The notes below the pieces were generated by a model. The model worked only from the letters and a program-made list of their open reading frames with translations. It ran no database searches and had not been told where the DNA came from. Below, in pieces: positions 32,476 through 45,883 of a DNA stretch of 64,000 bases. Made by a program: the position numbers and the translations under genes. The first letter of the stretch is position 1, and each line of letters starts with the position of its first letter. Origin of the DNA: Christensenella sp. (GTDB lineage: Bacteria > Bacillota > Clostridia > Christensenellales > CAG-138); assembly GCA_034927595.1 (NCBI GenBank), contig JAYFPQ010000017.1, forward strand, positions 34,224 to 98,223, read 5' to 3'.

Positions 32476-34260
32476 ATGTTCAACGAAGACAAACGCATCC
32501 TGTTCATCGACTTAAACACCGAAAAGCTGCGCATTGAGAAGCGTCCGGACCTCAACGAATATCTCGGCGGGGTCGGCATCGCGATGAAGCTCTTCGAAGA
32601 GAACGTTCACGTAGACCTTCCGCCGCTGCATGAAACCCAGCCGGTGGTCTTTGCCGTAGGCGCGCTGACCTCGATTTTCCCCGTCATGACCAAGACGGTT
32701 GCCGTGTTCTACTCGCCGCATACCGGCGAACTGGGCGAGAGCTACGCGGGCGGCCGCCTCGCGTTTGCGATGATGGACGCCGGGTTCGACGCCATCGTCA
32801 TCACCGGAAAATCGAAGAAACCGACCTACATTTCGGTTCGCTCGGACAGCGTTTCGTTTCGCGATGCGCGCGCCCTCTGGGGACTGCCGAGCACGGTCAT
32901 CGGCCGCATCATTCGCGAGCGGGAGCCGGGCCCCGGCAAGCGCAGCATCATTCGCATCGGCCCCGCGGGCGAAAACGGCGTGACCTACGCGAGCGTCTGC
33001 GTGGACACCTATCGCCACTTTGGGCGGCTTGGTCTCGGCGCGGTGCTGGGGTCGAAGAACCTCAAAGCGATGCAGGTCTATGGCACGACGTCGATTCCGA
33101 TCAAGGACTTTACGGCGTACTGGAAGGCCTATCGCGAAATCTACAAGAAATGCACGGACACCGAGCTCATGCAGAAGTATCACGACCTCGGCACGTCCAT
33201 CAACATTGAGCCGCTCAACGCGCTCGGCGTATTGCCGACCAAGAACCTCAAGCAGGCGGTGTTTGAGCATGGCGACAAGATCAGCGGCGAGCAGTTTGCC
33301 GAGTGCAATCTGGTTCGAAAGATGGCCTGCGTCGGCTGCCCGGTGGGCTGCATCCACATTGGTCAGTTCCGCCGCGAGTTTGACAAGGCGGGGCACGAGT
33401 ACGAGTCCATCAGTGTCGGCTACGATTACGAGCTGATCTTTGCGCTCGGCAGCTACCTTGGCATCAAGTCGACGGACGAAATTCTGGAGCTGATCGACGA
33501 GGTCGAGGAGCTGGGCATGGACGCGATGTCCGCCGGTGTTGCGCTCGGTTGGGCGACGGAAGCGTTCCAGCGGGGGCTCGTCACCGAAAAAGAAACCCTC
33601 GTTCCGCTCAAATTCGGCGAGAAGGACAACTACCTCAAGGCGCTGCGCTACATCGCCTGCATGGAAAACGACTTTTACTCCGCGCTGGGCAAGGGCGTTG
33701 CCCATGCGTCGAGCGTCTATGGCGGCAAGGACTATGCCATGCAGATTGCGGGCAACGAGATGGCGGGGTATCATACGGGCTACGGCGCGCTGATCGGCAT
33801 GGCCTGCGGCGCGCGGCACTCGCACCTTTGCAACGGCGGGTACTCGATTGACCAGGGCTTGAAGACGCCGGACGTCGACGTGATCGTCGACAAGATGTTC
33901 AAGGAAGAGGTCGACCGCTGCATGCTCAACTCCCTTGTCATGTGCCTCTTTGCGCGAAAGGTCTACGACCGTGACACGATTCTTTTGGCGCTCAACTCGG
34001 TTGGGTACCAGTTTACGAGCGACGATTTGTCGCACATTGCCGAGAAAATCTATGCAACGAAGATTCGCGTCAAGCGCGCCATGGGATTTGAGCAGGAGAA
34101 GGTGGAGTTTCCGAAGCGCTTCTTCGAAACACCCAGCCTGCACGGTCTGCTGGATGAGGCAACCGCCTACGAAGCGCAGCGTAAGTTCAACGCACTGACC
34201 AACGCGCTGGTATCGAAATACGAACCCGCGCCCGAACCGAAAGCGGCAAGCGACAAGTAA
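32476..34260 (+). CDS. aldehyde:ferredoxin oxidoreductase family (tungsto/molybdopterin) enzyme
   Basis: 594 aa. AOR N-terminal domain (ILFIDLNTEKLRIEKRPDLNEYLGGVGIAMKL). The Fe-S ligand region is ACVGCPVGCIH. Starts 3 nt after the ferredoxin gene. Confidence 0.88.
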   Translation: MFNEDKRILFIDLNTEKLRIEKRPDLNEYLGGVGIAMKLFEENVHVDLPPLHETQPVVFAVGALTSIFPVMTKTVAVFYSPHTGELGESYAGGRLAFAMMDAGFDAIVITGKSKKPTYISVRSDSVSFRDARALWGLPSTVIGRIIREREPGPGKRSIIRIGPAGENGVTYASVCVDTYRHFGRLGLGAVLGSKNLKAMQVYGTTSIPIKDFTAYWKAYREIYKKCTDTELMQKYHDLGTSINIEPLNALGVLPTKNLKQAVFEHGDKISGEQFAECNLVRKMACVGCPVGCIHIGQFRREFDKAGHEYESISVGYDYELIFALGSYLGIKSTDEILELIDEVEELGMDAMSAGVALGWATEAFQRGLVTEKETLVPLKFGEKDNYLKALRYIACMENDFYSALGKGVAHASSVYGGKDYAMQIAGNEMAGYHTGYGALIGMACGARHSHLCNGGYSIDQGLKTPDVDVIVDKMFKEEVDRCMLNSLVMCLFARKVYDRDTILLALNSVGYQFTSDDLSHIAEKIYATKIRVKRAMGFEQEKVEFPKRFFETPSLHGLLDEATAYEAQRKFNALTNALVSKYEPAPEPKAASDK

Positions 34261-34277
34261 GACAAAACACGGTAAAT

Positions 34278-34312
34278 AAAACGAGCGCTCCGTCGATGGA
34301 GCGCTCGTTTTC
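34278..34312. terminator. bidirectional rho-independent terminator
   Basis: AAAACGAGCGCTCC-GTCGAT-GGAGCGCTCGTTTT, an 11-bp GC-rich stem with flanking A and T tracts, between convergent genes. Confidence 0.8.
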
Positions 34313-34358
34313 TGTTTGTCATTCGTTCTTGATCGTTCGTCAACTCGAAGGCTGTTTT

Positions 34359-36041
34359 CTATTGATCGTACGGCAGGCCAAACGCGGTTTGATACTCTTT
34401 GTAAAGGTCGTTGCCCGTCCAGCCGCCCTCGCCGGAACTGCTCGCCTTGAAGCAAATCTGGCAGTCCGGCAGCGCTTTGACGAGCTGGTCGCGCTGTTCC
34501 TTGGTTACGTTCTTCACGCTCACAAACCAGAGCATTTCGAGGTCCTTGAGCCCTAGCAGCGGAGTAATGTCGTTAAACAGCGTAGCGCTGCAATTGAGAT
34601 AGCGCAGCTTGGGCAGCGCCGTGACCGTAGAGATGTCCGTTATGGGGTTCTGGTAGATTTCGAGACACTCCAGATTGGTCAGCGATTTAAGAGGGGAGAT
34701 GTCCACGATTTTGTTCATCGAAACAATCAGCGCGCGGAGCTTCGTGAGTCCGGACAGCGGAGTTAAATCGGTGATCCGGTTTCCGTGCCCCAGATCGAGA
34801 AAGACCAGATCCGTGCAGTACTTGAGCGGAACAATGTCCTCGTCGTGCAGGTTTGCCAGATTCTCGTCGACGAACCGACCCATATCATTGGGAAACACCT
34901 TGCGGTTCCCCTTGGAAAATGCCGTGATGTCCGTTCGCATTTCCCAGGCGCCGACCTGAATCATCCAGACGAACTTGACGTTTGGAAACGCCGCCATGAG
35001 CTGCTCCATCTGCTCGTTGGTTAGCCCGCAGTTGCACAAATTCGCATACGTCAGATTCGGCAGGTATTGCAACGCCGCCTCAACTTCCTCCGGCGAGGTC
35101 AGCGGGTAGCCGTTGAGCTCCAGCCGCGTCGCGTCGGTCGAAACCGTCTGCCCGAACAGCTCGATGGAGCAGATGAACACGACGTTCGGTAGTGCCGCTT
35201 TCAGCGCGCCCAGTTGCTCCAGCGTAAGCGTGTGCCCTTGCAGATTGACGCTCTTGAGCGCGGGGAACGCGCCTAGGAGCTCCGGCAATGCGGCAATGTC
35301 CACGTCCGCCGCGGACGAGAGATCAATCGACTCCGCAGTCGAAGGAATCTGCTGACCAAACAGCGATACGCCGTTGAGAAACGTCTTGTCGGGGTAAGCG
35401 CTTTGGAGCGCGGCAACCTGCTCCGCCGTCCAGCCCGTTTCGTTGAGGTCAATCTGCGCCAGCGCGGGCAGGCCAAACAGATACGCGCCGAACTGTTCCG
35501 GCGTCAGATCGCCGCCACCCCGAAGGACGACGGAGGTATCCGTGCTTTGGATCGTAATATCGCCAACGGTCACGTTCCAGGTAAAGGAGACGTTCGGGTA
35601 CGCCTGCGCGGCGGTTGCGAACGCATCGTTGACGAAGCAGAGCGTCGCGTCGACCTTTTTCAGCGAGGGAAAGCTGCGAAGCGTCGCCAGATCTGCGTCG
35701 CTGCAACCCGTTGGCAGCGTGAGCTCGGTTGCGCCGCTGTCAAAGCGCTCTCCACAGAGCGGAACGTTCCAAAGAATCGTGCAGTTCGGCAGCGCGGCAG
35801 ACAGGCGTTCGACCAGAGCCGCGTCCGCTTCCACGGCGCGCAGGTCCAGCGTCTTGAGCCGGTCAAATCCTTCGAACGACTCCGACTCCACCTGGGCAAT
35901 GTTGGAAACGACAATGGTCTCCGCGTTTTTGTCCAGCGTAGCCGCCGCACAGCCAGCGGAGAACAAAGCGATTGCAAAAACAAGGCTGAAACAAGCGAGC
36001 AGAACTATTCTTTTGGTGTGCCGATGAATTGATTGATTCAA
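34359..36041 (-). CDS. leucine-rich-repeat surface lipoprotein
   Basis: 560 aa. Signal peptide plus lipobox (FAIALFSAGC). Five ~70-aa modules share the ...A(L/Y/F)PN(V/C)xFxW... signature. Classic C-terminal LRRs follow (LTxLxxLxxLxxLxIxxNxIxDISPL). Confidence 0.8.
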   Translation of the reverse strand: MNQSIHRHTKRIVLLACFSLVFAIALFSAGCAAATLDKNAETIVVSNIAQVESESFEGFDRLKTLDLRAVEADAALVERLSAALPNCTILWNVPLCGERFDSGATELTLPTGCSDADLATLRSFPSLKKVDATLCFVNDAFATAAQAYPNVSFTWNVTVGDITIQSTDTSVVLRGGGDLTPEQFGAYLFGLPALAQIDLNETGWTAEQVAALQSAYPDKTFLNGVSLFGQQIPSTAESIDLSSAADVDIAALPELLGAFPALKSVNLQGHTLTLEQLGALKAALPNVVFICSIELFGQTVSTDATRLELNGYPLTSPEEVEAALQYLPNLTYANLCNCGLTNEQMEQLMAAFPNVKFVWMIQVGAWEMRTDITAFSKGNRKVFPNDMGRFVDENLANLHDEDIVPLKYCTDLVFLDLGHGNRITDLTPLSGLTKLRALIVSMNKIVDISPLKSLTNLECLEIYQNPITDISTVTALPKLRYLNCSATLFNDITPLLGLKDLEMLWFVSVKNVTKEQRDQLVKALPDCQICFKASSSGEGGWTGNDLYKEYQTAFGLPYDQ

Positions 36042-36080
36042 AATAACATCAGTCCGTTTCTATTCAAATAATCAATTGCT

Positions 36081-36959
36081 TTAGAGGTATAGAATCGCCA
36101 GCATGGCAACGACCAGCAGCCCAACCATCGCCAGCAGCCAACGGTCGCCAAAGAGCACTTCGACCGGGTCGCCGTCCGAGCGTCCCTCGGCGGTCAGGCT
36201 GTATTTCAGGCAGATTAAAATTACGAGCGGAACCGTCCAGAGCAGGTAGTCCCCGGAGGCGTGCTTCGCGGAAATCCCGTCCACGCACCAGAGGGAGTAA
36301 AACAGAATTCCGAGCGTCAGGCACATATACATGCCCTTGTCGAGAAACGAGTAGCTGTACCAGTTCAGCACCGCGCGCGTCTCTCCCTGCGTTTCGCCGG
36401 ACTGCAGCGCGCGCAGCTCGTTTCTGCGCTTGCCAAGCCCCATGAAGAACGACAGCGCGACGACGGTGAGATACAGCCAGTCGGAAATCGAAATCGAAAC
36501 GAGCGCCGAGCCATACAGCAGACGCAGTAGGAAACCGAGCATCAGAATCGTGATGTCCAGAATGGGCACGTTCTTCAGCCCCAGACTGTAGCCGACGTTG
36601 AACAACAGGTAGACCACCATGAAGATCCACGGCAGCAGCGCGCGCCCGCAGGCAAACGCGTTGACCACCAGCGCGAGAACGAGCAGCACCGCCGCGATGA
36701 CACGCGCCGTCGCAATCGGCACCGCACCGCTCGCGATGGGGCGGTTCTTCTTCGTCGGATGCAGGCGATCCTTCTCCACGTCCCGAATGTCATTGATGAT
36801 GTACACGGCGGACGACAGCAGCGAGAATGCGACGAAGCCAAGTAACACCGGAATCAGTAGCGACAGGTTGGAGAGCTGACGCCCGAACACGAGCGGCAGA
36901 AACAGCAGGACGTTCTTGCTGTAGTGCTTTACGCGCAATAGCTTAAAATACGGCTTCAT
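36081..36959 (-). CDS. UbiA-family prenyltransferase, decaprenyl-phosphate phosphoribosyltransferase-like
   Basis: 292 aa polytopic protein. MKPYFKLLRVKHYSKNVLLFLPLVFG plus the Asp-rich motif YIINDIRDVEKDRLHPTKKNRPIASG, as in DPPR synthases. Confidence 0.75.
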   Translation of the reverse strand: MKPYFKLLRVKHYSKNVLLFLPLVFGRQLSNLSLLIPVLLGFVAFSLLSSAVYIINDIRDVEKDRLHPTKKNRPIASGAVPIATARVIAAVLLVLALVVNAFACGRALLPWIFMVVYLLFNVGYSLGLKNVPILDITILMLGFLLRLLYGSALVSISISDWLYLTVVALSFFMGLGKRRNELRALQSGETQGETRAVLNWYSYSFLDKGMYMCLTLGILFYSLWCVDGISAKHASGDYLLWTVPLVILICLKYSLTAEGRSDGDPVEVLFGDRWLLAMVGLLVVAMLAILYL

Positions 36960-37009
36960 GCGTCACCTCCAAAATAGATGGGTGTTCGGCGATTCTCGTT
37001 GAAAGGGGG

Positions 37010-38677
37010 TCAGGAAACGGGGTAGTATTGCAGTCCAAAGCGAAGGATGTCCGCAAGACCCAGCGTATTCAGGTAAGCCAGCGCGAGGATACCCGCGCCA
37101 AGCAGACCATATTGCAGCGGGCGAATCTGCCGGAACAACCGCTTGATCAGCAGCAGAATCAACGACACAAACGCCCAGCCAAAGTAGAGCGTATAGAGCA
37201 CCAGCCCGTTTTCCGAGGTGCCCCAGCCGAGCACGCAGAGCAGCAGAAACGAGCAGGCGACCCATGCGGCGCAGATGCGCGCAAAGACGCTCTTCCGGTT
37301 CAGCAGGAATCCGGCGATTGCCGCGGCAAGAACGGCAAACCCGCCGACGCTCCAGCTCGTTACCTCCAGTTGATGGTACACGGCCATGCCGGAGTCGTAA
37401 TGGAACACCTGCGCCGCCGGGGCAACGAAGCACGAGGCGACAAAGCGGATGTACTGCATCAGCCGGGCAAGGAACGGAAGCTTATCTCCCGCAAATTGGA
37501 GCAGAAACTGAAGGTTCGCGGCGGTGGTCATCACCATGGCCGCGCGCCCGAACAGAAGGGCGATCAGCACAAACCAGAGAACGGCGAGCGCGCCTTGCTG
37601 AAACCGCTGCTTCCAGGATTTGCCGCTTGGAACGAGAACAATCGACACGCCGCTGATCAAAATCGAGCCGGTGGCGGCGATCCAGGCGGTGTCCCGACCC
37701 TCGGTTTCGCCGGACACAAACAGCCAGACCAGCAAGATCAGCCAGAACACGGAGAAGATGTATTGCTCCATGTTCAGCAAAAACAACAGCGTTGGAAACA
37801 TGACACTCAGCAGAACCAGCGACAGCGCCTTGCCTCCGCCGGACGTGCCGAACATGCGAACGATCAGAATCAAAGCCAGCAACAAAAGCGCAGCCTGCAC
37901 AATTTGAAGCAGCGGCAGGTATACTGCCGGAAGCAACAGCAGGCGGGAAACGAGCGAAGCGCCGAGCGCAAACGGCGCGGCGAACACCCCAAAGAGCGGC
38001 TGGCGGATGTCGTTTTCCGACGCGGCAACGTTGAGAAACACGTTTTGTTCCGTCAGGGAAGACGTATCACTCGTGTAGAGAATGTCGACTTTTTTCCAAA
38101 CGTTATCCGCCGAAGCATTCGGGTTTGAAAACACGCTTGTCTGGGAATAGACGACTACGATGGCGACGACGCAGAGCGCGAGCGCGACGAGAAAGAACCA
38201 GCGCTCGACCGCGTCCGTCTTTTGCAAAATGGCGCGCATCCGTGCGGAAAGCCAGCCAAGAAACCAGTAGAGATACACAAATAGCGCGAGAACGGCGACC
38301 AGCCCCGCAAGCGCGGAGGCTGCGGCGCCGTAGCGGCCGGCCAGATCGAGAATCAGCGGCTTTGCGCTTTCGGCGGCAAAGCTGTTGAGGTGCACCAGAA
38401 AGAGATTCGCATAAACCTCGGCCGCATAGGCGGCGAGCACGAGACTCAGCGCCGCGCGCCCCAGATGGAACGAGGCGAACACCCGCTCGAGAAACCGAAA
38501 GCGAAAGACGAGGAAGATCAGCGCGAGCACAACGAGCGGCAGGCTGGCCACGACCCAGACGAGTTCGCCCTTGACGGAGAGCAGCCCGGCAAGCGCGGTT
38601 GCCGAGAGCAAGAACAGCCAGCGAAACGCCTTGGTCGGCGTTTGATCTGCCTGTAGGAACAGATGGTTCATTCCCAA
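37010..38677 (-). CDS. large polytopic membrane protein, possible GT-C-type glycosyltransferase
   Basis: 555 aa, with at least 12 hydrophobic segments by eye. One hydrophilic loop contains ...VAASENDIRQPLFG. I recognise no family motif with certainty. It lies 50 nt upstream of the UbiA gene on the same strand. Confidence 0.5.
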   Translation of the reverse strand: MGMNHLFLQADQTPTKAFRWLFLLSATALAGLLSVKGELVWVVASLPLVVLALIFLVFRFRFLERVFASFHLGRAALSLVLAAYAAEVYANLFLVHLNSFAAESAKPLILDLAGRYGAAASALAGLVAVLALFVYLYWFLGWLSARMRAILQKTDAVERWFFLVALALCVVAIVVVYSQTSVFSNPNASADNVWKKVDILYTSDTSSLTEQNVFLNVAASENDIRQPLFGVFAAPFALGASLVSRLLLLPAVYLPLLQIVQAALLLLALILIVRMFGTSGGGKALSLVLLSVMFPTLLFLLNMEQYIFSVFWLILLVWLFVSGETEGRDTAWIAATGSILISGVSIVLVPSGKSWKQRFQQGALAVLWFVLIALLFGRAAMVMTTAANLQFLLQFAGDKLPFLARLMQYIRFVASCFVAPAAQVFHYDSGMAVYHQLEVTSWSVGGFAVLAAAIAGFLLNRKSVFARICAAWVACSFLLLCVLGWGTSENGLVLYTLYFGWAFVSLILLLIKRLFRQIRPLQYGLLGAGILALAYLNTLGLADILRFGLQYYPVS

Positions 38678-38827
38678 ATCCCCCCGTCGGCGCGCGCAGC
38701 CGGACGACTGCCGATGCAGAGCGCCTTATTTCGATTTTTACCTCTGGTCGATACCGGATATTATAGCATACCGCCGCGAATACTGACAATCGAAGCGGCG
38801 ACGAGCCGTAGGAACGCGGCATGCATT

Positions 38828-38875: not shown

Positions 38876-39007
38876 AGTCCACAGGTTAGACACATCCGTA
38901 AGAATCACATGAGATATTGCTTGTTTTCCATTCAAAATCACGTATCATTCGAAATACGCAGTATGGTATAAGTGTATTTACATCATTTGTTTAGGGGAAA
39001 GAACCGT

Positions 39008-40606
39008 ATGCCGGAATACCGCATCATGATTGTGGACGACGAAACCGAGGTTCGCGAGGGCATTGCCAGCCGCGTGGACTGGAAAGCCGCCGGGTTTACG
39101 ATTGTCGCCACTGCCGAAAACGGACAGGATGCGCTGGAGAAGGCGGAGTTTCTGGATCTCGACGTCGTGCTGACGGACATCAAGATGCCGTATATGGACG
39201 GACTGACCCTCGGGGCGGAGCTGCTCAGCCGATACCCGGCAACGAAGCTGATCATCCTCTCCGGGTTCGACGAGTTTGAGTACGCCAAGGAGGCAATCAA
39301 GCTCAACGTGCTGGAGTATGTGCTCAAGCCCGTGAATGCGGACGAGCTGCTGCTGGTGTTGCAGCGGGCAAAGGCAAGGCTCGACGCGGAGTTCAACGCA
39401 AAGCAGGATATCGAGTCCCTACGCTCGCGCTACGAGCAGGCGCTGCCGCTGCTGCGGGACCAGAGCCTGCGCGAAATCCTCGCGGGGTCCGTTCCGGCGG
39501 AAGAGGTATCGCGGCTGTTCGAACTCTACGGCGTCCACCTCGATATCACAAACCCGATGATCGTCGCCGTATTCGACACGAGCGGGCAGATTCCGGCCGG
39601 GTCGATGATTACGCGGGAACTGCTGCCCGTTTCGGTGCGCGCGCTGGTGGAAGCGGCGCTGGAAGGCAAGTGCTCCTACGCTACGTTTTTGAGTTTTTAC
39701 AACGTCATCGTCGTTTCCAGCTGGGTGAGCGATCCGGTGGATCATATGATGATGGCGGCAAATGAAATCTGCGGCGAGTGCAAATCGCTCTTCGGCGTCG
39801 AGGTGACGGCGGGGGTCGGGCGCCGCTGCGGCGAGGTTTCGCTGCTGCGCGAGTCGCTCTTTGAAGCGCGTTCCGCGCTGGAATATCAGCGCGTGGTCGG
39901 TGGCGGCAAGGCGATCTATATTCGGGACGTCGAGCGCATGACGCGCCACCCCGCGACGCTGGACAGCCGTTATGAGCAGCGCCTGACCGCGGCGGTGAAG
40001 TTCGGCTCCGGCGAGCAGATTGAAACCGAGATTGGAGAGATTCTCGAAGGACTCAGCGACGCCGCGCCCGGCGACTGGAAGTACCGCGCCTATGTGACGG
40101 GCATTCTCAACGCGCTCAACCAGATCATCGCGCGCTACGACCTGCCCGCGGAAGAGGTAATGGGCGACGAAGGCATGCTGCTGTTTCAAGAGGGCGGCAG
40201 GCTGGGCGTTCCCTCACTCCAGAAAGCCCTGTTGGAGGTTTGCCTTCGCATCGGCGGCTACATGAACCAGCGCCGCTCCTCCATGGCGGGCACACTCGTA
40301 GAAAAGGCGAAGCAGTTCATTCTCAAGCACTTTGCAGACGTCGATCTTTCCGTCGAGAAGGTCTGCGAACACCTGCACATCAGCCAGTCCTACTTTTCCT
40401 CCATCTTCAAGCAGGACACGGGGCGCAGCTTTGTGCAGTATTTAATCGATCTTCGCATGGATCACGCCGCGGAACTGCTGCGTGAGTCCGACGAAAAGAC
40501 CTATGTCATTGCCCAGCGGGTCGGCTACGACGAGCCGAACTATTTTTCCTACGTGTTTAAACGCAAATTCGGCGTATCACCCTCGCAATTCCGAAACGGG
40601 AACTAG
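39008..40606 (+). CDS. YesN-type response regulator (REC + AraC-family HTH)
   Basis: Track ORF is 38972..40606 (GTG). The ATG at 39008 (MPEYRIMIVDDE) follows AGGGGAAAG. REC motif DVVLTDIKMPYMDG. C-terminal AraC HTH: GYDEPNYFSYVFKRKFGVSPSQFR. Confidence 0.88.
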   Translation: MPEYRIMIVDDETEVREGIASRVDWKAAGFTIVATAENGQDALEKAEFLDLDVVLTDIKMPYMDGLTLGAELLSRYPATKLIILSGFDEFEYAKEAIKLNVLEYVLKPVNADELLLVLQRAKARLDAEFNAKQDIESLRSRYEQALPLLRDQSLREILAGSVPAEEVSRLFELYGVHLDITNPMIVAVFDTSGQIPAGSMITRELLPVSVRALVEAALEGKCSYATFLSFYNVIVVSSWVSDPVDHMMMAANEICGECKSLFGVEVTAGVGRRCGEVSLLRESLFEARSALEYQRVVGGGKAIYIRDVERMTRHPATLDSRYEQRLTAAVKFGSGEQIETEIGEILEGLSDAAPGDWKYRAYVTGILNALNQIIARYDLPAEEVMGDEGMLLFQEGGRLGVPSLQKALLEVCLRIGGYMNQRRSSMAGTLVEKAKQFILKHFADVDLSVEKVCEHLHISQSYFSSIFKQDTGRSFVQYLIDLRMDHAAELLRESDEKTYVIAQRVGYDEPNYFSYVFKRKFGVSPSQFRNGN

Positions 40607-40683
40607 CGCGTTTCGTGCGGCCTAAGAGGGAAGGACAAACCGGCAAACATCAGCCGGCGCATACCATACGGGAGTGGATCGAA

Positions 40684-42495
40684 ATGGGAAAGTCACTGGT
40701 TCGTGCGCTTTCCGGCAGGCTCGTTTCGCAATCGGAGCGTTCGAGCATCCGCTATACGGTCTTTCTGTCGTTCACCATCAGCGCAATCGCCGCGATGGTG
40801 CTGACCGGCATGCTGTTCTATTTCAATTTTTCACGTCAGTTGGAGCAAACGATCCAGAGTGAGAACGAAATGCTCGTCAAGCAGGTCAACCAATCGGTCG
40901 ATACGTACCTGCGCGACATGCTCCGGCTCTCGAACTCCATCTACTACAACGTCATCAAGAATGTGGATATCGACAGCGACCCGATCAACTCCGAATTGCA
41001 GCTGCTCTACGGAACCTATTCGAGCTATGTGGAGAACATCGCTCTGTACGATCTGGATGGAAACCTGCTCGCCACCGCGCCGCCCGCGCTCAGTAAGCCC
41101 GGCGTGGACGTCCGGCAGGCGCAGTGGTTTCAAAAGGCGCTCAACCGAACGGAGAACCTGCACTTTGCAACGCCGGAGATTCAAAATCTGTTTGTCAACG
41201 CGGAGCATCGCTACATCCGCGTGATTTCGCTTTCCTCCGCCGTGGAAATCACGAGCGGAAAGAGCACCATGGGCGGCGTGCTGCTGATTGACCTCAAGTA
41301 CAACAGCCTTACGGAGCTGTTTGACCACATGTCGCTGGCAAATGGCGGCTATCTGTACCTGATGGACGCCAACGGAGAATTGATCTACCATCCGGAGCAG
41401 CAGCTGATCGCCTCGGGACTCGCGAAGGAAAACAACCTCGTCGCGGCAACGTATGACGACGGCGGGCATCAGGAGACGTTTAACGGAGAAGCGCGTTCCA
41501 TCATCGTGCGCACGGTCGGGTACACCGGCTGGCGCATTGTCGGCGTGATTCCGCAGCAGGGCATCGTGCTCAATCAGCTGGACAATGTGCTCATCATCAT
41601 TGCAATATTCCTGATGCTGTTTGACATCGTCATTCTGATCAATTCGTTTATCTCAACCAAGCTCACCGCGCCGATCAAGCACCTGGAGGAGTCCGTCCAG
41701 ACGCTGGAATACGGGGACGCGAGCAAGGCCATCTATCAGGGCGGTTCCTACGAGATCCGTCACCTCGGCGCGTCGATTCAGGGCATGGTCGACCAACTCC
41801 AGCAACTGACGGACGACATCGTCCGCGAGCACGAACAAAAGCAGAAGAGCGAGCTGGACGCGCTGCAAAGCCAGATCAACCCGCATTTCCTCTACAACGC
41901 GCTCGACATCATCGTTTGGATGATTGAGCGGGAGCAGCCGCGCGAAGCGGTGAACATCGTCACTGCGCTGGCGAGGCTCTTCCGCATCAGCCTCAGCCGC
42001 GGCAAGAACATCATTCCCGTTCGGGACGAGCTGGAGCACGTGCAGAACTACCTGACCATTCAGACGATGCGCTATAAGAACAAGTTCTCCTATGTCATCG
42101 AGATGGATGACGAGGTGAAGGACCTCGCGATCATCAAGCTCGTTGTCCAGCCGCTCGTGGAAAACGCAATCTACCACGGCATGGACTTTATGGACGGCGA
42201 CGGAATGATCACGATCTCGGCAAAGATCGTTGGCGACGAGCTGCATCTGACGGTCGCGGACAACGGCCTCGGCATGAAGCCGGAGGTCGTCGAGCGATTA
42301 TTGGTTGAATACACACCCGTCTCCAAAGGTTCCGGCGTCGGGCTGAAGAACGTCAACGAGCGCATCAAACTCTACTTTGGCGACCGCTACGGGGTACTGA
42401 TCAAGAGCGAACCGGACGAGGGCACCTGGATTACGCTTGTGCTGCCGATCATTCGCTACGAAACAGAGGAGGCGAGCGACGTTGGGCAAAAGTGA
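40684..42495 (+). CDS. YesM/LytS-type sensor histidine kinase (two TM segments, extracytoplasmic domain, HAMP, His_kinase, HATPase)
   Basis: Track ORF is 40615..42495. The ATG at 40684 gives MGKSLVRAL. TM1 is FTISAIAAMVLTGMLFYF. A ~270-aa external domain is followed by TM2 (LIIIAIFLMLFDIVILI). H-box QINPHFLYNALD. ATPase motif GSGVGLKNVNERI. Confidence 0.88.
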   Translation: MGKSLVRALSGRLVSQSERSSIRYTVFLSFTISAIAAMVLTGMLFYFNFSRQLEQTIQSENEMLVKQVNQSVDTYLRDMLRLSNSIYYNVIKNVDIDSDPINSELQLLYGTYSSYVENIALYDLDGNLLATAPPALSKPGVDVRQAQWFQKALNRTENLHFATPEIQNLFVNAEHRYIRVISLSSAVEITSGKSTMGGVLLIDLKYNSLTELFDHMSLANGGYLYLMDANGELIYHPEQQLIASGLAKENNLVAATYDDGGHQETFNGEARSIIVRTVGYTGWRIVGVIPQQGIVLNQLDNVLIIIAIFLMLFDIVILINSFISTKLTAPIKHLEESVQTLEYGDASKAIYQGGSYEIRHLGASIQGMVDQLQQLTDDIVREHEQKQKSELDALQSQINPHFLYNALDIIVWMIEREQPREAVNIVTALARLFRISLSRGKNIIPVRDELEHVQNYLTIQTMRYKNKFSYVIEMDDEVKDLAIIKLVVQPLVENAIYHGMDFMDGDGMITISAKIVGDELHLTVADNGLGMKPEVVERLLVEYTPVSKGSGVGLKNVNERIKLYFGDRYGVLIKSEPDEGTWITLVLPIIRYETEEASDVGQK

Positions 42496-43402
42496 GAAAT
42501 CCGCGTTTATTCTGATTACGGCGCTGCTCGTGCTGCTGATCGGCTTTATTCTGATTCGCGCGCTGACGAGCCACGACGCGGTGCGCGTTTACCGCGTTTC
42601 GATCATTACGGACGACGTGCAGGGGGACTACAGCGCAAACGTGCTCAAGGGTCTCGACCGCGCGGCGCGGGACTATAACATCGACCTGCAGGTCATTGCC
42701 CTGCACAGCGGCATGACGACGGAGCAGCAGAAGAACTCGCTCGAGCGCGAGCTGGAGTCGGAGACGGATGCGATCATCCTCAACCTCCAGCAAAACCCGA
42801 ACCTCTCCGAACAGCTCGACCTTTCGGCCATGTCGGTGCCGGTCATTTCGCTTGGCACCGCCTGGGACGGCTCTTCCTCCATTCGCAGCATATCGACAGA
42901 CGACGCCGCCATGGGGCGCATGCTTGCCGAGGAGATGATTAAGGACGGGGTTACCTCCTGCGCGATTCGCGCGAGCCTGGACAACGCGCGTGTTCGCCTG
43001 CGGGAACAGGGGTTTATTGAAGCGATCGAAGCGGCCGGCATTCCGTATGCGAGCGAGTGGAACCCGGAGTCAATTGCCTGGGGCAGCTTTCCCGCCGGGG
43101 TTGCCGTAGCCGCGCTGGACGAACCGTCGCTGGAGATGGTGCTTGACCAGCGCATGCTCAATCGTCCCGCGCTGTATGGAATCGGCTACACAAACACGTT
43201 GCTGTCGAATCTGGAGTCCGGCGTCATCCGCCGCCTGATTGTGGAGGACGACTACGCGATGGGGTATCTTGCGCTGCAGAGCGCCGTGGACGCGATTGAA
43301 AACCACGGAAAGGTTTACGAACAGATCTTGGAGTGCTATGTGGCCGACGCGGAGCACCTCTATCAGGAACCGCTGAAGCACATTCTGTTTCCAATTTCGT
43401 AA
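42482..43402 (+). CDS. membrane-anchored type-I periplasmic-binding-protein-fold protein (sensor-associated)
   Basis: Track ORF is 42437..43402. A TTG at 42482 follows GAGGAGG and overlaps the kinase stop. The N-terminal uncleaved-looking TM segment is AFILITALLVLLIGFILI. An RbsB/LacI-core-like domain follows (RVSIITDD...DAIILN...VPVISLG). The start is uncertain. Confidence 0.7.
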   Translation: MGKSEKSAFILITALLVLLIGFILIRALTSHDAVRVYRVSIITDDVQGDYSANVLKGLDRAARDYNIDLQVIALHSGMTTEQQKNSLERELESETDAIILNLQQNPNLSEQLDLSAMSVPVISLGTAWDGSSSIRSISTDDAAMGRMLAEEMIKDGVTSCAIRASLDNARVRLREQGFIEAIEAAGIPYASEWNPESIAWGSFPAGVAVAALDEPSLEMVLDQRMLNRPALYGIGYTNTLLSNLESGVIRRLIVEDDYAMGYLALQSAVDAIENHGKVYEQILECYVADAEHLYQEPLKHILFPIS

Positions 43403-43453
43403 GAGCATTCACTCGGATCACGTTTTTCAGATATACAGAATGGAGGGATCGCG

Positions 43454-44479
43454 ATGGAATGGAAGCGCGCCGCGCGCTCAGCCCTGGCGCTTGTAATGGT
43501 TTTGGCAAGCTTGCCTCTGCTGGGGTGCTCCCGCGGGAACACCGAGCAGGGACCTTCGATTAGCCTCGGCGTGGCGATTTACAACGGGGACGACACGTTC
43601 ATTTCGAACATGATGCTCTCGCTCACCGAGATTGCCGCGCGCTACGAGCAGGACACGGGTACCCGCGTCTACGTGAACCTCACGGACGCGCAGGAGAACC
43701 AGACGAACCAAAACAAGCAGATCGACCGGTTCGTTTCAATGAACTACGACGTGCTCTGCGTCAACCTCGTGGATCGCACGGACGCTTCCTACACGATTGA
43801 CCGCGCAATGGACGCGGACATCCCGGTGGTCTTCTTTAACCGCGAGCCGGTGCAGGAGGACCTCCAAAAATGGGATCGAATTTACTACGTCGGCACCGAC
43901 CCGGCGGAGAACGGGCGGCTGGAGGGGCAGATCGTCGTGGACGCCTACAAGGCGGACCCCGCGCGCTTCGATAAAAACGGCGACGGCATCGTGCAATACA
44001 TCATCATCGAGGGCGAAATTCGCCATCAGGACGCGATGATTCGAACGGAGGTATCCGTCCAAACGCTCAAGGACGCGGGCATTGAACTCGAAAAGCTCGA
44101 CGGCGGCATCGCAAGCTGGGTGCGCAGTCAGGCGGCGGCACTCTCCGATCAGTATTTTGAAAAGTACGGCGATCAGATTGAGCTGATCATCTGCAACAAC
44201 GACGACATGGCGCTTGGCGTAATCGACACGGTCGAGCGGCGGGGGCTTTCGTTTAACAACATCGTCGGCATCGACGGGACGCCCGCGGGGCTAGCCGCCG
44301 TGGAGCAGGGCAAGATGCTTGGCACGGTGGTCATCGACTACGCCACGCAGGCCAAGCTCATCTTTGACCTCGCCAGCACCCTCGCGGTGGACGGCGACCC
44401 GAAGCAGGTCGTCGATATGGGCGCCGACCGAACGGTACGCGCACCAATGTATGTGGTAAAGGCGGATTTCATTCCGTAA
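43454..44479 (+). CDS. MglB-like galactose/glucose-binding lipoprotein paralogue (in the sensor operon)
   Basis: 341 aa. Lipobox LPLLGC. ISLGVAIYNGDDTFIS..., NKQIDRFVSMNYDVLCVNLVD, DIPVVFFNREP and ICNNDDMALG align by eye with the downstream MglB. Confidence 0.8.
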   Translation: MEWKRAARSALALVMVLASLPLLGCSRGNTEQGPSISLGVAIYNGDDTFISNMMLSLTEIAARYEQDTGTRVYVNLTDAQENQTNQNKQIDRFVSMNYDVLCVNLVDRTDASYTIDRAMDADIPVVFFNREPVQEDLQKWDRIYYVGTDPAENGRLEGQIVVDAYKADPARFDKNGDGIVQYIIIEGEIRHQDAMIRTEVSVQTLKDAGIELEKLDGGIASWVRSQAAALSDQYFEKYGDQIELIICNNDDMALGVIDTVERRGLSFNNIVGIDGTPAGLAAVEQGKMLGTVVIDYATQAKLIFDLASTLAVDGDPKQVVDMGADRTVRAPMYVVKADFIP

Positions 44480-44516
44480 CGGCGGGTTTTGCCGCGTTTC
44501 GCCGGACGAAACCGGA

Positions 44517-44537
44517 GAAATTCGGTTTGATTCCTGG
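44517..44537 (+). promoter_or_regulatory. second copy of the conserved box GAAATTCGGTTTGATTCCTGG
   Basis: The exact 12-mer TTCGGTTTGATT (44521..44532) is shared with 38841..38852. CGCCGGA(C/T)GAA precedes both copies (44500..44510 here). Confidence 0.5.
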
Positions 44538-44574
44538 AAATCGGGATTTTATCGGTAAAATCGCGAAAAAATGG

Positions 44575-44604
44575 ATTGTTGCCGACTCGAAAATCTATTA
44601 TAAT
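44575..44604 (+). promoter_or_regulatory. candidate promoter upstream of mglB
   Basis: TTGTTG (44575..44580), an 18-nt spacer, TATAAT (44599..44604). Confidence 0.4.
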
Positions 44605-44645
44605 CCTAGCAAGAACTAAAACAATTCCTCCGAAATCACAGTAGA

Positions 44646-44681
44646 TTTTTCATGGATTCAGCGAGAATTTTGCATGGAATT
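44646..44681 (+). repeat. direct repeat TTTTTCATGGATT / ATTTTGCATGGAATT (CATGGA cores 22 bp apart)
   Basis: CATGGA occurs at 44651..44656 and 44673..44678 with similar T-rich flanks. Spacing is two helical turns, as expected for an AraC-type activator site. Confidence 0.45.
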
Positions 44682-44698
44682 TACAATTGATCGCCGTT

Positions 44699-44736
44699 AA
44701 GATGTGGATGTACCCGGATGACGGGTATCACATCTT
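44699..44736 (+). promoter_or_regulatory. long leader stem-loop just upstream of the mglB RBS
   Basis: AAGATGTGGAT(G)TACCCG-GATGA-CGGGTATCCACATCTT-type pairing: 16 bp with one bulge. It ends 8 nt before AGGAGG. Confidence 0.6.
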
Positions 44737-44757
44737 ATCTTATCAGGAGGAAATCAA

Positions 44758-45780: not shown

Positions 45781-45809
45781 GCGACTTCGCATCGGACTAC
45801 TGGAACAAA

Positions 45810-45844: not shown

Positions 45845-45883
45845 GCATATCATCGTTCAACTCGAACAAGGGGATAACAAGCA

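What the first reader, a model, noticed from the sequence alone, without database searches (positions are those of the whole stretch)
34359..38677. Minus-strand operon: polytopic (GT-C-like?) membrane protein + DPPR-synthase-like UbiA + LRR lipoprotein, a possible polyprenyl-phosphoribose-dependent envelope glycosylation system in a Firmicute
Three genes lie on the same strand with 50-nt and 39-nt gaps and end at a strong bidirectional terminator.
- The UbiA homologue has the signature of decaprenyl-phosphate 5-phosphoribosyltransferases (NDIRDVEKD...KNRPIASG). These make the lipid-linked pentose donor for arabinan in Corynebacteriales.
- Upstream lies a 555-aa protein with at least 12 TM segments and an acidic loop (SENDIRQPLF). 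This is the general look of GT-C transferases that use such lipid donors.
- Downstream lies a surface LRR lipoprotein.

No DprE1/DprE2-type epimerase is present, so the donor could stay at the ribose stage. A lipid-linked pentofuranose pathway is not, to my knowledge, a described feature of Clostridia-type envelopes. The LRR protein could be the glycosylated target or an adhesin displayed with the polymer.
Basis: partly seen in the sequence, partly recalled or inferred. Interest (0 to 1): 0.6.

Follow-up and report, generated by a model that had tools for sequence, protein, structure and literature searches.

The report
Lipid-linked ribose glycosylation operon in Clostridia
A three-gene operon in a gut-type Clostridia bacterium most likely makes a lipid-linked ribose donor and uses an uncharacterised membrane enzyme family to attach that sugar to something on the cell surface; this extends a pathway described in 2024 to new enzymes and new bacteria.

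Summary
Three minus-strand genes (37010-38677, 36081-36959, 34359-36041) lie 50 and 39 nt apart, between a near-consensus promoter and a bidirectional hairpin terminator.

- **Gene 2** is a polyprenyl-phosphate 5-phosphoribosyltransferase of the Rv3806c type. It passes one NCBIfam cut-off, matches PDB 8j8j at E 1.4e-35, and keeps the PRPP-contact residues.
- **Gene 1** is a roughly 15-TM protein of an uncharacterised family distantly related to DUF6080, with about 950 clusters at 50% identity. In 49 of 79 related loci it sits within 3 kb of such a UbiA gene on the same strand. It is often next to a HAD phosphatase, with or without a fused GtrA, or next to MATE/SMR flippase candidates, and is sometimes fused to the HAD itself. 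Its high-confidence model has structural similarity above background only to GT-C glycosyltransferases in the PDB, but weakly (E at best 0.048, TM 0.3-0.42).
- **Gene 3** is an LRR lipoprotein that is co-conserved with gene 1 only in a Christensenellales-like clade.

The best reading is a pentofuranose (probably ribofuranose) surface-glycosylation module. It follows the logic of the three-component systems of Kelly et al. 2024, but with a different putative transferase family. I rate it a new variant of a known kind, of moderate interest. The acceptor and the role of the LRR protein remain open.

The parts
38760..38789 (-). Promoter-like site: TTGTCA, 18-nt spacer, TATAAT with an upstream TG. 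It lies 83-112 nt upstream of the TTG ORF start of the first gene (89-118 nt upstream of the preferred ATG at 38671).
   Evidence: 11 of 12 consensus matches; sequence read.
37010..38677 (-). Gene 1: polytopic membrane protein of about 15 TM helices (553 aa from the ATG at 38671). It belongs to an uncharacterised family distantly related to DUF6080 and is the putative GT-C-type pentofuranosyltransferase.
   Evidence: ORF. No Pfam hit for this protein itself, but 14 of 49 family members hit PF19558. Model pLDDT 93, pTM 0.93. The only PDB structures with TM above 0.25 are GT-C superfamily enzymes and the structurally related PIG-U. Synteny with UbiA, HAD, GtrA, MATE and SMR genes.
37991..38020 (-). 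Codons for the SENDIRQPLF loop motif (residues 220-229). This is the most conserved element of the family and is predicted to lie on the extracytoplasmic side after TM5.
   Evidence: N222, D223, R225 and P227 are invariant. The pattern ND[IL]RQPLF was picked automatically. Topology model.
36081..36959 (-). Gene 2: polyprenyl-phosphate 5-phosphoribosyltransferase (PPPRS/DPPRS, UbiA superfamily), preceded by a GGAGGTG ribosome-binding site.
   Evidence: Pfam UbiA 1.5e-18. NCBIfam NF008978 208.8 bits against a cut-off of 207. PDB 8j8j E 1.4e-35. RBS read.
36768..36794 (-). Codons for N56-D64 (NDIRDVEKD), the Mg2+/PRPP-binding motif of the phosphoribosyltransferase.
   Evidence: The alignment places N56 and D60 opposite Rv3806c N73 and D77. 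PMC10994848 shows these residues bind Mg2+-PRPP.
34359..36041 (-). Gene 3: LRR lipoprotein of 560 aa with a TTG start. The lipobox Cys31 is encoded at 35949-35951.
   Evidence: LRR_4 2.7e-22 and LRR_8. Cys31 invariant. All-LRR solenoid model with pLDDT 91.4; best PDB match is internalin A at E 5.7e-12.
34278..34311 (.). Bidirectional intrinsic terminator hairpin: 15-bp stem and 4-nt loop, flanked by A4 and T4. It is shared with the convergent aldehyde:ferredoxin oxidoreductase gene.
   Evidence: The sub-threshold Rfam sraL matches on both strands are just this hairpin.

Best explanation
The operon encodes a module that decorates the cell envelope with a pentofuranose, most likely ribofuranose.

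**Step 1 (well supported).** The UbiA-family enzyme transfers ribose-5-phosphate from PRPP to a polyprenyl phosphate, presumably undecaprenyl phosphate, at the cytoplasmic face of the membrane.

**Step 2 (inferred).** The 5-phosphate is removed and the lipid-linked ribose is flipped outwards. These functions are not encoded in this operon. In many related loci they are supplied by a HAD-IB phosphatase, often fused to a GtrA flippase-like domain, or by MATE or SMR/EamA proteins.

**Step 3 (inferred from synteny, fold and conservation).** The 553-aa, roughly 15-TM protein is a GT-C-like glycosyltransferase. Its invariant acidic and polar residues (D198, D204, N222-D223-x-R225, E304-Q305, E489-N490) lie in three predicted extracytoplasmic loops. 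It would transfer the pentofuranose from the lipid carrier to an acceptor outside the membrane.

**Step 4 (open).** The LRR lipoprotein is tethered to the outer face of the membrane. It is either an acceptor-binding or scaffolding partner of the transferase, or the acceptor itself. Because no epimerase is linked to the module, the sugar probably stays as ribose.
For: **UbiA enzyme**
- NCBIfam decaprenyl-phosphate phosphoribosyltransferase models score 214 and 208.8 bits, and one of them passes its cut-off. Haem-O and ubiquinone models score about 30 bits.
- The PDB match to 8j8j (Rv3806c) has E 1.4e-35 over residues 6-282.
- The Rv3806c PRPP/Mg contact residues K28, Y70, N73, D77, Q135 and Y157 (PMC10994848) align with K15, Y53, N56, D60, N121 and F143.

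**Pathway link for gene 1**
- Of 79 loci encoding relatives of gene 1, 50 contain a DPPRS-like UbiA gene. In 49 it lies within 3 kb on the same strand, and in 35 within 150 nt. The loci come from Clostridia, Paenibacillus, Bacilli, Treponema, Planctomycetes and Anaerolineae.
- 29 loci contain a HAD phosphatase, and 58 contain UbiA or HAD.
- The HAD gene is frequently fused to GtrA (PF12710 + PF04138). Paenibacillus loci add MatE and EamA/SMR genes.
- Some family members carry the HAD domain fused to their own N-terminus: P0109, P0308 and P0326.
- A Lactococcus cremoris EPS plasmid carries Wzy-like, Wzx, gene-1 homologue (hhalign probability 100, E 3.7e-63), DPPRS, HAD-IB and GtrA genes in a row.
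- Some genomes carry two gene-1 paralogues at separate loci but only one adjacent UbiA gene: L005/L032 and L051/L071. This is what is expected of transferases that share one donor.

**Fold and topology**
- The model has pLDDT 93.
- All PDB hits with TM above 0.25 are GT-C superfamily enzymes, apart from the structurally related PIG-U.
- The invariant polar residues all map to loops predicted to face outwards.

**Precedent**
- PMC11127046 demonstrated this logic experimentally: PPPRS, then phosphatase, then flippase, then GT-C.
Against: - No significant sequence or profile similarity links gene 1 to any characterised GT-C. The profile search against the PDB found nothing. hhalign against AftB, PMT_2-like and DUF6020 proteins gave probabilities below 2%.
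- The conserved acidic loop follows the fifth helix, not the first as in canonical GT-C enzymes.
- The window (64 kb) and a 79%-identical relative with the same synteny encode no HAD, GtrA, MATE or SMR partner nearby.
- No polysaccharide gene cluster lies beside the operon, so the acceptor is unknown.
- Nothing has been tested biochemically.
Confidence: 0.62

Rival explanations
1. Gene 1 is not a transferase. It is instead the flippase or translocase for the polyprenyl-phosphate-ribose(-5-phosphate) made by gene 2, and the glycosyltransferase is encoded elsewhere.
For: - No dedicated flippase gene is present in this operon or within 10 kb in the closest syntenic relative.
- There is no sequence-level similarity to any GT family.
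- The Foldseek hits are statistically weak.
Against: - In at least 25-29 related loci gene 1 co-occurs with separate flippase-type proteins: GtrA fusions, MatE and EamA/SMR.
- Some genomes carry several gene-1 paralogues, which fits transferases with different acceptors better than redundant flippases.
- The invariant residues are charged or polar and lie in predicted extracytoplasmic loops, not along a transmembrane pathway.
- The structural neighbours are GT-C enzymes, not MOP, MATE or ABC transporters.
Confidence: 0.12
2. The system is a protein glycosylation system. The co-transcribed LRR lipoprotein is the acceptor and is O-pentofuranosylated by gene 1, much as the GT-C enzyme TfpW arabinosylates the adjacent pilin in Pseudomonas aeruginosa.
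For: - The LRR gene is adjacent to gene 1, upstream or downstream, in 23-24 of 79 loci.
- Paralogous LRR lipoproteins (40-46% identity) sit beside a different polytopic protein that has a weak PMT_2 match, E 2.7e-4. PMT_2 is the family that includes protein O-mannosyltransferases.
- The lipoprotein is on the correct side of the membrane, since its lipobox Cys is invariant.
- PMC11127046 cites the P. aeruginosa pilin precedent, in which a PPPRS-derived donor is used for pilin O-glycosylation.
Against: - Most gene-1/UbiA pairs have no LRR gene nearby. This holds for Oscillospiraceae, Paenibacillus, Treponema, Acetanaerobacterium and Lactococcus.
- The Lactococcus copy sits inside a Wzx/Wzy polysaccharide cluster.
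- The LRR model shows a compact solenoid without an obvious Ser/Thr-rich linker.
- Other LRR paralogues sit next to NAGPA, PGA_cap and Branch genes rather than next to a transferase. This suggests a general partner role in glycan processing.
Confidence: 0.18
3. The donor is converted to another pentofuranose (arabinofuranose or xylofuranose) by epimerases encoded elsewhere in the genome, as in the mycobacterial decaprenyl-phosphate-arabinose pathway.
For: - In every characterised pathway, epimerisation acts on the same polyprenyl-phosphate-ribose intermediate (PMC11127046).
- Other pathway genes (phosphatase, flippase) are also unlinked from this operon, so an unlinked epimerase cannot be excluded.
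Against: - No VAO-type flavoprotein is found in the window or in any of the 79 related loci.
- None of the recurrent neighbour gene clusters that I inspected or scanned is an epimerase.
- According to Kelly et al., epimerase genes were present within the candidate modification systems wherever the glycan contained Xylf or Araf.
Confidence: 0.15
4. The three genes are merely neighbours. The UbiA enzyme supplies a lipid-linked sugar for an unrelated pathway, and gene 1 and the LRR protein have an unrelated surface function such as adhesion.
For: - No function of gene 1 has been tested, and it has no Pfam annotation.
- LRR proteins are classically adhesins; the best structural match is internalin A.
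Against: - Adjacency of gene 1 and UbiA in 49 of 79 loci across phyla cannot be coincidence. The gaps are often 4-60 nt, and HAD fusions to gene-1 homologues also occur.
Confidence: 0.03

Closest known systems
Three-component pentofuranose side-chain systems (Citrobacter youngae O1 ORF15 PPPRS-PRP, ORF14 MATE flippase, ORF12 GT-C = GT136; Kelly et al. 2024, PMC11127046)
   Same: - The same first enzyme, a PRPP-dependent UbiA-family polyprenyl-phosphate phosphoribosyltransferase.
- The same accessory logic in related loci: a HAD-type phosphoribose phosphatase, a MATE/SMR/GtrA-type flippase and a large polytopic protein in the transferase slot.
- The Lactococcus copy sits in a Wzx/Wzy polysaccharide cluster, as expected for a side-chain modification.
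- No epimerase is linked, as in the ribofuranose (O1) version.
   Different: - The polytopic protein belongs to a different family, related to DUF6080, with no EpsG or GT136 signal and no C-terminal carbohydrate-binding domain.
- The HAD domain is not fused to UbiA. It is a separate gene, fused to GtrA, or fused to the polytopic protein.
- This particular operon has neither a phosphatase nor a flippase, and adds an LRR lipoprotein.
- The host is a monoderm Clostridia organism without an O antigen.
Mycobacterial decaprenyl-phosphate-arabinose pathway (Rv3806c, Rv3807c, DprE1/DprE2, Rv3789; Emb/Aft GT-C arabinosyltransferases)
   Same: - Gene 2 is a clear homologue of Rv3806c and keeps the PRPP- and Mg-binding residues.
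- The donor would be a polyprenyl-phosphate pentofuranose used outside the membrane by polytopic transferases.
- Several transferase paralogues can share one donor synthase.
   Different: - There is no DprE1/DprE2, so arabinose is unlikely.
- The phosphatase in related loci is HAD-IB rather than PAP2.
- Gene 1 shows no detectable sequence similarity to Emb/Aft proteins.
- The lipid is presumably undecaprenyl, not decaprenyl.
Pseudomonas aeruginosa TfpW pilin arabinosylation
   Same: A PPPRS-derived lipid-linked pentofuranose is used by a GT-C enzyme, and the protein substrate gene lies beside the transferase gene. This is a possible analogy for the LRR lipoprotein.
   Different: That system includes DprE1/E2-type epimerases and targets pilin. 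Here there is no evidence yet that a protein is the acceptor.
Gtr-type and Gram-positive three-component glycosylation (GtrA/GtrB/GtrC; CsbB-GtcA-YfhO for teichoic acids) - from general knowledge
   Same: Both involve extracytoplasmic decoration of envelope polymers from an undecaprenyl-phosphate-sugar donor, with a GtrA-family flippase and a GT-C-fold transferase. Some Bacilli loci place a GtrB-like GT2 and a DUF6020/PMT_2-like protein next to the gene-1/UbiA module.
   Different: In those systems the donor synthase is a GT2 enzyme that uses a UDP-hexose, not a UbiA-type enzyme that uses PRPP.
Pfam DUF6080 (PF19558)
   Same: 14 of 49 family members match this model (best E 1.3e-10), so gene 1 belongs to the same broad superfamily of bacterial polytopic proteins.
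   Different: The window protein itself does not match. DUF6080 has no assigned function, and no paper in the searchable library mentions it.

Membership tests
Polyprenyl-phosphate 5-phosphoribosyltransferase (Rv3806c/DPPRS, PPPRS; UbiA superfamily) | UbiA-fold membrane protein with the first Asp-rich motif NDxxDxxxD | tested here: met
   Pfam UbiA 1.5e-18. N56-D57-I-R-D60-V-E-K-D64 aligns with Rv3806c N73-D74...D77...D81.
Polyprenyl-phosphate 5-phosphoribosyltransferase (Rv3806c/DPPRS, PPPRS; UbiA superfamily) | Scores above the curated cut-off of an NCBIfam equivalog model for this enzyme, and far above the models for other UbiA enzymes | tested here: met
   NF008978 scores 208.8 against a cut-off of 207, so it only just passes. 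NF008977 scores 214 against 234 and fails. The haem-O, ubiA and menA models score 20-33 bits.
Polyprenyl-phosphate 5-phosphoribosyltransferase (Rv3806c/DPPRS, PPPRS; UbiA superfamily) | Conservation of the residues that contact PRPP and Mg2+ in the Rv3806c structure (K28, Y70, N73, D77, Q135, Y157) | tested here: met
   K15, Y53, N56 and D60 are identical. Q135 is replaced by N121 and Y157 by F143; the paper contrasts Y157 with the conserved, important K28 and Y70.
Polyprenyl-phosphate 5-phosphoribosyltransferase (Rv3806c/DPPRS, PPPRS; UbiA superfamily) | Catalyses PRPP + polyprenyl-phosphate -> polyprenyl-phosphate-ribose-5-phosphate | not testable with these tools
   Needs a membrane assay with PRPP and farnesyl or undecaprenyl phosphate, as in PMC11127046.
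GT-C fold glycosyltransferases | Large polytopic membrane domain (about 7-13 or more TM helices) | tested here: met
   The AlphaFold model (pLDDT 93) has about 15 membrane-length helices.
GT-C fold glycosyltransferases | Significant structural similarity to solved GT-C enzymes | tested here: inconclusive
GT-C fold glycosyltransferases | Catalytic acidic residue in the first long extracytoplasmic loop, next to the membrane surface | tested here: inconclusive
   The invariant residues D204 and D223 (with D198 and R225) lie in a 49-residue loop predicted to face outwards. That loop follows TM5 of this protein; it is the first long loop of the region conserved across the family, since the Lactococcus homologue starts aligning at residue 128. 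I could not superpose the model on a GT-C active site.
GT-C fold glycosyltransferases | Uses a polyprenyl-phosphate-linked sugar donor | not testable with these tools
   Inferred only from synteny with the donor synthase.
CAZy GT136 (C. youngae ORF12 type) | Sequence similarity to ORF12 (EpsG-like by CDD) and a C-terminal carbohydrate-binding module | tested here: not met
   None of the 49 family members hits an EpsG model or any other GT Pfam model at E <= 1. The protein ends with a TM helix and has no extra domain. I could not obtain the ORF12 sequence for a direct comparison.
Emb/Aft arabinofuranosyltransferases (GT53/GT85/GT89) | Detectable sequence or profile similarity | tested here: not met
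   The profile search against all PDB sequences found no GT-C. hhalign against a Tsukamurella AftB homologue gave probability 0.9%.
Three-component pentofuranose modification system (Kelly et al. 2024) | PPPRS gene present | tested here: met
   Gene 2.
Three-component pentofuranose modification system (Kelly et al. 2024) | Phosphoribose phosphatase (HAD PRP) linked to the synthase | tested here: not met
   Absent from the 64-kb window and from +-10 kb in the syntenic relative L090. Present in 29 of 79 related loci.
Three-component pentofuranose modification system (Kelly et al. 2024) | Dedicated flippase (MATE or SMR type) in the locus | tested here: not met
   None in the window. GtrA fusions, MatE and EamA/SMR genes are present in related loci.
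Three-component pentofuranose modification system (Kelly et al. 2024) | GT-C transferase in the locus | tested here: inconclusive
   Gene 1 occupies that slot, but its GT-C fold is only weakly supported.
Pfam DUF6080 (PF19558) | Match to the Pfam model above the gathering score | tested here: not met
   The window protein has no hit at E <= 1. 14 of 49 relatives match, with best E 1.3e-10. The relation is therefore distant.
Bacterial LRR lipoprotein (internalin-like LRR) | Leucine-rich repeats, plus a signal peptide with a lipobox cysteine | tested here: met
   LRR_4 2.7e-22 and LRR_8. Cys31 after ...LFSAG is invariant in 49 homologues. Foldseek match to internalin A at E 5.7e-12. The protein has none of the curated internalin class signatures: its NCBIfam scores are far below the cut-offs.

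The most novel reading that the evidence does not exclude
Gene 1 founds a new glycosyltransferase family that uses undecaprenyl-phosphate-ribofuranose. In Christensenellales-type gut Clostridia its acceptor is the co-transcribed LRR lipoprotein. This would make it a protein O-ribofuranosylation system, with several LRR-lipoprotein paralogues each paired with its own membrane glycosyltransferase.
Probability: 0.15. Interest if true: 0.75.

Novelty: new variant of a known kind. Interest (0 to 1): 0.45.

Why it matters
If the inference holds, three things follow.

- **A new candidate enzyme family.** A family of about 950 sequence clusters, currently annotated as hypothetical, would become a candidate glycosyltransferase family for lipid-linked pentofuranoses. 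It is spread over gut Clostridia, Paenibacillus, spirochaetes and dairy lactococci.
- **A surface sugar not reported for these bacteria.** In the literature I could search, I found no report of ribofuranose (or another pentofuranose) on the surface of abundant but poorly studied gut anaerobes. Such a sugar would bear on phage receptors, immune recognition and serotyping.
- **Tractable test systems.** The Lactococcus cremoris plasmid pF27D and the cultured strains Acetanaerobacterium elongatum CGMCC 1.5012 and Paenibacillus glycanilyticus NBRC 16618 all carry the gene pair. A knockout combined with sugar analysis would test the prediction directly.

The recurrent pairing of LRR lipoproteins with envelope-glycan enzymes is a separate lead on what these very common "internalin-like" proteins of Clostridia do.

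Tried and rejected
- **Profile search of the family against all PDB sequences.** It returned only a designed coiled coil at E 8.7.
- **hhalign of the family against other polytopic proteins.** The targets were a PMT_2-like 500-aa family, the "c9" 504-aa family, DUF6020 proteins from the fetched loci and a Tsukamurella AftB. All probabilities were below 2%. These alignments were thin, so this is weak negative evidence.
- **Partner genes in the window.** I found no HAD, GtrA, MATE, SMR, DUF6020 or c9-type homologue in the 64-kb window.
- **Epimerase search.** A VAO-type flavoprotein query found nothing in the window or the 79 loci. The query was a generic FAD oxidase, not DprE1 itself, and SDR-type enzymes were not searched for.
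- **Phage carriage of gene 1.** There was no match in the GenBank phage collection or in IMG/VR. I therefore dropped the idea of a phage-borne seroconversion module for this family.
- **Rfam scan of the operon and its leader.** Only sub-threshold sraL matches appeared, and both are the terminator hairpin. There is no riboswitch.
- **Literature.** No paper mentions DUF6080. I found nothing on the Lactococcus module or on ribofuranose in lactococcal EPS. One badly designed search gave nothing useful.
- **Horizontal transfer.** I considered whether the operon is a recent acquisition. Its GC content (0.57-0.58) matches the rest of the window, and the synteny is conserved in a 79%-identical relative, so I rejected this.

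Full report
**1. What is in the sequence**

Three minus-strand ORFs occupy 37010-38677 (555 aa), 36081-36959 (292 aa) and 34359-36041 (560 aa). The gaps between them are 50 and 39 nt.

- **Promoter.** A near-consensus extended -10 promoter (TTGTCA, 18 nt, TG-n-TATAAT) lies at 38789-38760.
- **Terminator.** A 15-bp hairpin at 34278-34311, flanked by A and T runs, separates the operon from a convergent aldehyde:ferredoxin oxidoreductase gene. It can terminate transcription in both directions.
- **Start of gene 1.** The first gene probably starts at the ATG at 38671, which is preceded by GGGGGGA. This gives 553 aa, the length of almost all close homologues.
- **Flanking genes.** They are unrelated to glycan synthesis. 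Upstream and divergent lie an AraC-type response regulator, a Cache histidine kinase and a sugar ABC transporter. Downstream lie a ferredoxin and the oxidoreductase. The same synteny is found on a 487-kb metagenomic contig whose gene-1 product is 79% identical.
- **Composition and host.** GC content is uniform across the region. The nearest relatives are MAGs labelled Clostridia, Christensenella or Eubacteriales, so the host is a Firmicute.

**2. Gene 2 is a phosphoribosyltransferase**

- It hits Pfam UbiA.
- In NCBIfam it scores 214 and 208.8 bits on two decaprenyl-phosphate phosphoribosyltransferase equivalog models. It passes the cut-off of one (207) and just misses the other (234). Haem-O synthase, UbiA and MenA models score only 20-33 bits.
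- It matches the solved M. tuberculosis enzyme Rv3806c (PDB 8j8j) at E 1.4e-35 over almost its whole length.
- The structure paper (PMC10994848) names K28, Y70, N73, D77, Q135 and Y157 as contacts for PRPP and Mg2+. In the alignment these correspond to K15, Y53, N56, D60, N121 and F143. Four are identical, one is an amide-for-amide change, and the sixth is the residue the paper contrasts with the conserved, important K28 and Y70.

I therefore regard the assignment as a polyprenyl-phosphate 5-phosphoribosyltransferase as well supported, though it is untested biochemically.

**3. Gene 1: family and genomic company**

*Family size and annotation.*
- The protein has no Pfam hit itself.
- A word-indexed search found 116 relatives. 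A full HMM search found 954 cluster representatives at E <= 0.001, of which 704 are at E <= 1e-30.
- 14 of 49 aligned members weakly match DUF6080. No paper in the searchable library mentions that family.
- Alignment of 49 members shows the invariant residues D204, N222, D223, R225, P227, E304, Q305, Y306, G484 and G486, and the nearly invariant D198, Y201, E489 and N490.

*Synteny.* A scan of one genome per species returned 246 relatives, and I fetched 79 loci. tblastn and ORF clustering gave the counts below.

| Neighbour of gene 1 | Loci (of 79) |
|---|---|
| DPPRS-like UbiA gene anywhere in the locus | 50 |
| UbiA within 3 kb, same strand | 49 |
| UbiA within 150 nt, usually immediately downstream | 35 |
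| HAD (PF12710) phosphatase | 29 |
| UbiA or HAD | 58 |

- The HAD gene is often fused to a GtrA domain (PF04138).
- Paenibacillus loci contain two tandem gene-1 paralogues plus UbiA, an EamA/SMR-like small membrane protein, a MatE transporter and an ABC exporter.
- Several family members carry the HAD domain fused to their own N-terminus.
- The taxa include Oscillospiraceae, Christensenellaceae, Acetanaerobacterium, Paenibacillus, uncultured Bacilli, Treponema, Planctomycetaceae and Anaerolineaceae.
- Other recurrent neighbours are envelope-glycan genes: a GtrB-like GT2, Acyl_transf_3, Branch, NAGPA/PIG-L, a polysaccharide deacetylase, a WecA-like GT4 and UDP-GlcNAc 2-epimerase.

*A cultured example.* Plasmid pF27D of Lactococcus cremoris F.2.7 carries an EPS cluster with the following genes in a row, followed by an LCP gene:
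1. a Wzy-like gene
2. Wzx
3. a 462-aa hypothetical protein
4. DPPRS (50% identical to gene 2)
5. a HAD-IB phosphatase
6. GtrA

The hypothetical protein is a gene-1 homologue: hhalign probability 100, E 3.7e-63, aligned from residue 128 to the end.

*Paralogues.* Some genomes hold two gene-1 paralogues at different loci but only one adjacent UbiA gene. L005 and L032 lie on one contig, and L051 and L071 on one chromosome.

**4. Gene 1: fold and topology**

- **Model quality.** AlphaFold with the 49-sequence alignment gave pLDDT 93 and pTM 0.93, with about 15 membrane-length helices.
- **Fold search.** Foldseek against the PDB gave no hit at E <= 0.001. The ranking is nevertheless informative.
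  - Every hit with TM above 0.25 is a GT-C superfamily enzyme, apart from the structurally related PIG-U: ALG12 (E 0.048, probability 1.0, TM 0.37/0.42), STT3A, PglB, AglB, PimE, ALG9 (TM 0.40), Pmt1/2, AftA and EmbB.
  - The interleaved GPCRs and transporters have TM about 0.1 and probability about 0.1.
- **Topology.** I built a simple model from the predicted helices. The N-terminus faces inwards, consistent with the N-terminal HAD fusions and with a twofold higher Lys+Arg density in the loops assigned as inside. In this model every invariant polar residue falls in one of three outside loops: after TM5, after TM7 and after TM13.
- **Sequence-level links.** None could be found to characterised GT-C families. 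There was no EpsG/GT136-type signal either.

I conclude that a GT-C-like transferase is the best reading. Family membership is not demonstrated.

**5. Gene 3**

- It is an LRR protein with an invariant lipobox cysteine.
- Its all-solenoid model has pLDDT 91.4, and the best PDB match is internalin A.
- Homologues are adjacent to gene 1 in 23-24 of 79 loci, either downstream (the clade at 54% identity or more) or upstream (a second gene-1 subfamily). In that first clade the usual order is HAD-GtrA, gene 1, LRR, with no UbiA in the locus. The window's lineage instead has UbiA inserted between gene 1 and the LRR gene.
- The LRR family is larger than this association, with 627 hits. More distant paralogues lie beside other envelope genes:
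  - a 500-aa polytopic protein with a sub-threshold PMT_2 match, plus an NAGPA phosphodiester glycosidase;
  - NAGPA, PGA_cap, Branch and Wzy_C genes.
- Most gene-1/UbiA pairs elsewhere have no LRR neighbour.

The LRR protein is therefore a lineage-specific partner or target, not a core component.

**6. Mechanism proposed**

1. PRPP plus polyprenyl phosphate gives polyprenyl-phosphate-ribose-5-phosphate (gene 2; well supported).
2. The intermediate is dephosphorylated and flipped. These functions are encoded elsewhere in this genome and next to the pair in many relatives (inferred).
3. The pentofuranose is transferred to an extracytoplasmic acceptor by gene 1 (inferred from synteny, fusions, paralogy, fold and the placement of conserved residues).
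4. The LRR lipoprotein acts as a partner or as the acceptor (open).

No epimerase is linked to the module in any locus, so ribofuranose is the default sugar.

**7. Comparison with what is known**

Kelly et al. 2024 (PMC11127046) showed experimentally that C. youngae uses three components to add alpha-ribofuranose or xylofuranose side chains: a UbiA-type PPPRS fused to a HAD phosphatase, a MATE flippase and a GT-C enzyme (GT136). They state that such systems are widespread, including in gram-positive bacteria (Bacillus sp. NP157) and a phage.

The present operon follows that logic. It differs in three respects:
- the transferase family;
- the arrangement of the phosphatase and flippase (absent here; HAD-GtrA or HAD-transferase fusions in relatives);
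- the LRR lipoprotein.

It also resembles the mycobacterial arabinan donor pathway, but it lacks DprE1/E2 and Emb/Aft-type enzymes. I therefore rate it a new variant of a known kind.

**8. Confidence**

| Statement | Probability |
|---|---|
| Gene 2 is a PPPRS | about 0.9 |
| Genes 1 and 2 act in one pathway | about 0.9 |
| Gene 1 is the transferase | about 0.65 |
| The sugar is ribofuranose | about 0.5 |
| The LRR protein is the acceptor | about 0.15-0.2 |

Noticed in passing
L080 (Lactococcus cremoris F.2.7 plasmid pF27D, NZ_CP068515.2) 4228-10715; also Lactococcus sp. plasmid NZ_PP589792.1: A dairy lactococcal EPS plasmid carries the module gene-1 homologue, DPPRS, HAD-IB phosphatase and GtrA directly after the Wzy-like and Wzx genes. 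This predicts a pentofuranose side chain on that EPS. I found no paper describing it.
   Followed up: partly
L081 4527-7812; L086 3431-6641; L088 3533-6692: Paralogues of the LRR lipoprotein (40-46% identity) are translationally coupled to a different 500-aa polytopic protein with a weak PMT_2 match (E 2.7e-4). In two of the three loci (L086, L088) a roughly 840-aa protein follows, and the L086 one is an NAGPA phosphodiester glycosidase. All three loci lie just downstream of rpmB. LRR lipoproteins in this lineage seem to be regular partners of envelope-glycan enzymes.
   Followed up: partly
L084 and L089 (LRR paralogues of 498 aa): A third LRR subfamily sits between NAGPA (about 835 aa) and a lipoprotein of about 430 aa (a PGA_cap match in L089 only), next to a Branch (GT14-like) gene; L084 also has a Wzy_C gene.
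   Followed up: no
L029 9678-10652, L004 1268-2236, L002 4755-5723 and about 20 other loci: Single polypeptides fuse a HAD-IB phosphatase to a GtrA four-helix domain. This would join the dephosphorylation and flipping steps of a lipid-linked sugar in one protein. Other relatives fuse the HAD domain to the gene-1 family protein instead (P0109, P0308, P0326).
   Followed up: partly
L016, L018, L026 (Paenibacillus spp.) about 500-9635: Two tandem gene-1 paralogues lie with UbiA, an EamA/SMR-like 117-aa protein and an ABC exporter; L016 also shows a MatE transporter upstream. This elaborate version resembles the multi-GT-C Bacillus system that Kelly et al. mention.
   Followed up: partly
L005 and L032 (same contig CAXXUL010000003.1); L051 and L071 (OW818651.1); L009 and L045 (OY762290.1): Single genomes carry two gene-1 loci, in most cases with an LRR gene beside them (not at L051), and at most one has an adjacent UbiA gene. 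In OY762290.1 neither fetched locus contains UbiA.
   Followed up: no
MT837543.1 4925-5746 (Bacteriophage sp., human faeces, 6.6-kb record): A short phage record encodes a DPPRS-like UbiA homologue (34.5% identity, E 4e-26). No gene-1 relative is found in any phage collection.
   Followed up: no
window 38972-48406 (+): Divergent from the operon lie an AraC-type response regulator with a GGDEF-like domain, a Cache histidine kinase, periplasmic sugar-binding proteins (two scanned; a third in the syntenic L090) and an ABC ATPase/permease. The arrangement is conserved in the 79%-identical relative L090. There is no evidence that it regulates the operon.
   Followed up: no
window 34186-34418: Sub-threshold Rfam sraL matches on both strands (28.4 and 24.2 bits; gathering score 39) coincide with the terminator hairpin and are artefacts of it.
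   Followed up: yes
window 36001-38000: AT skew on the plus strand is unusually high here (0.284, against about 0.05 elsewhere). The probable cause is that the two membrane-protein genes on the minus strand are rich in T-containing hydrophobic codons.
   Followed up: no
L091 (Tsukamurella tyrosinosolvens 'plasmid 12') 8836-10842: The GT-C gene downstream of DPPRS in the canonical glf-glfT2-PAP2-DPPRS locus is annotated "flagellar motor control protein ZomB". By position it corresponds to AftB (Rv3805c), so this looks like a misannotation.
   Followed up: no
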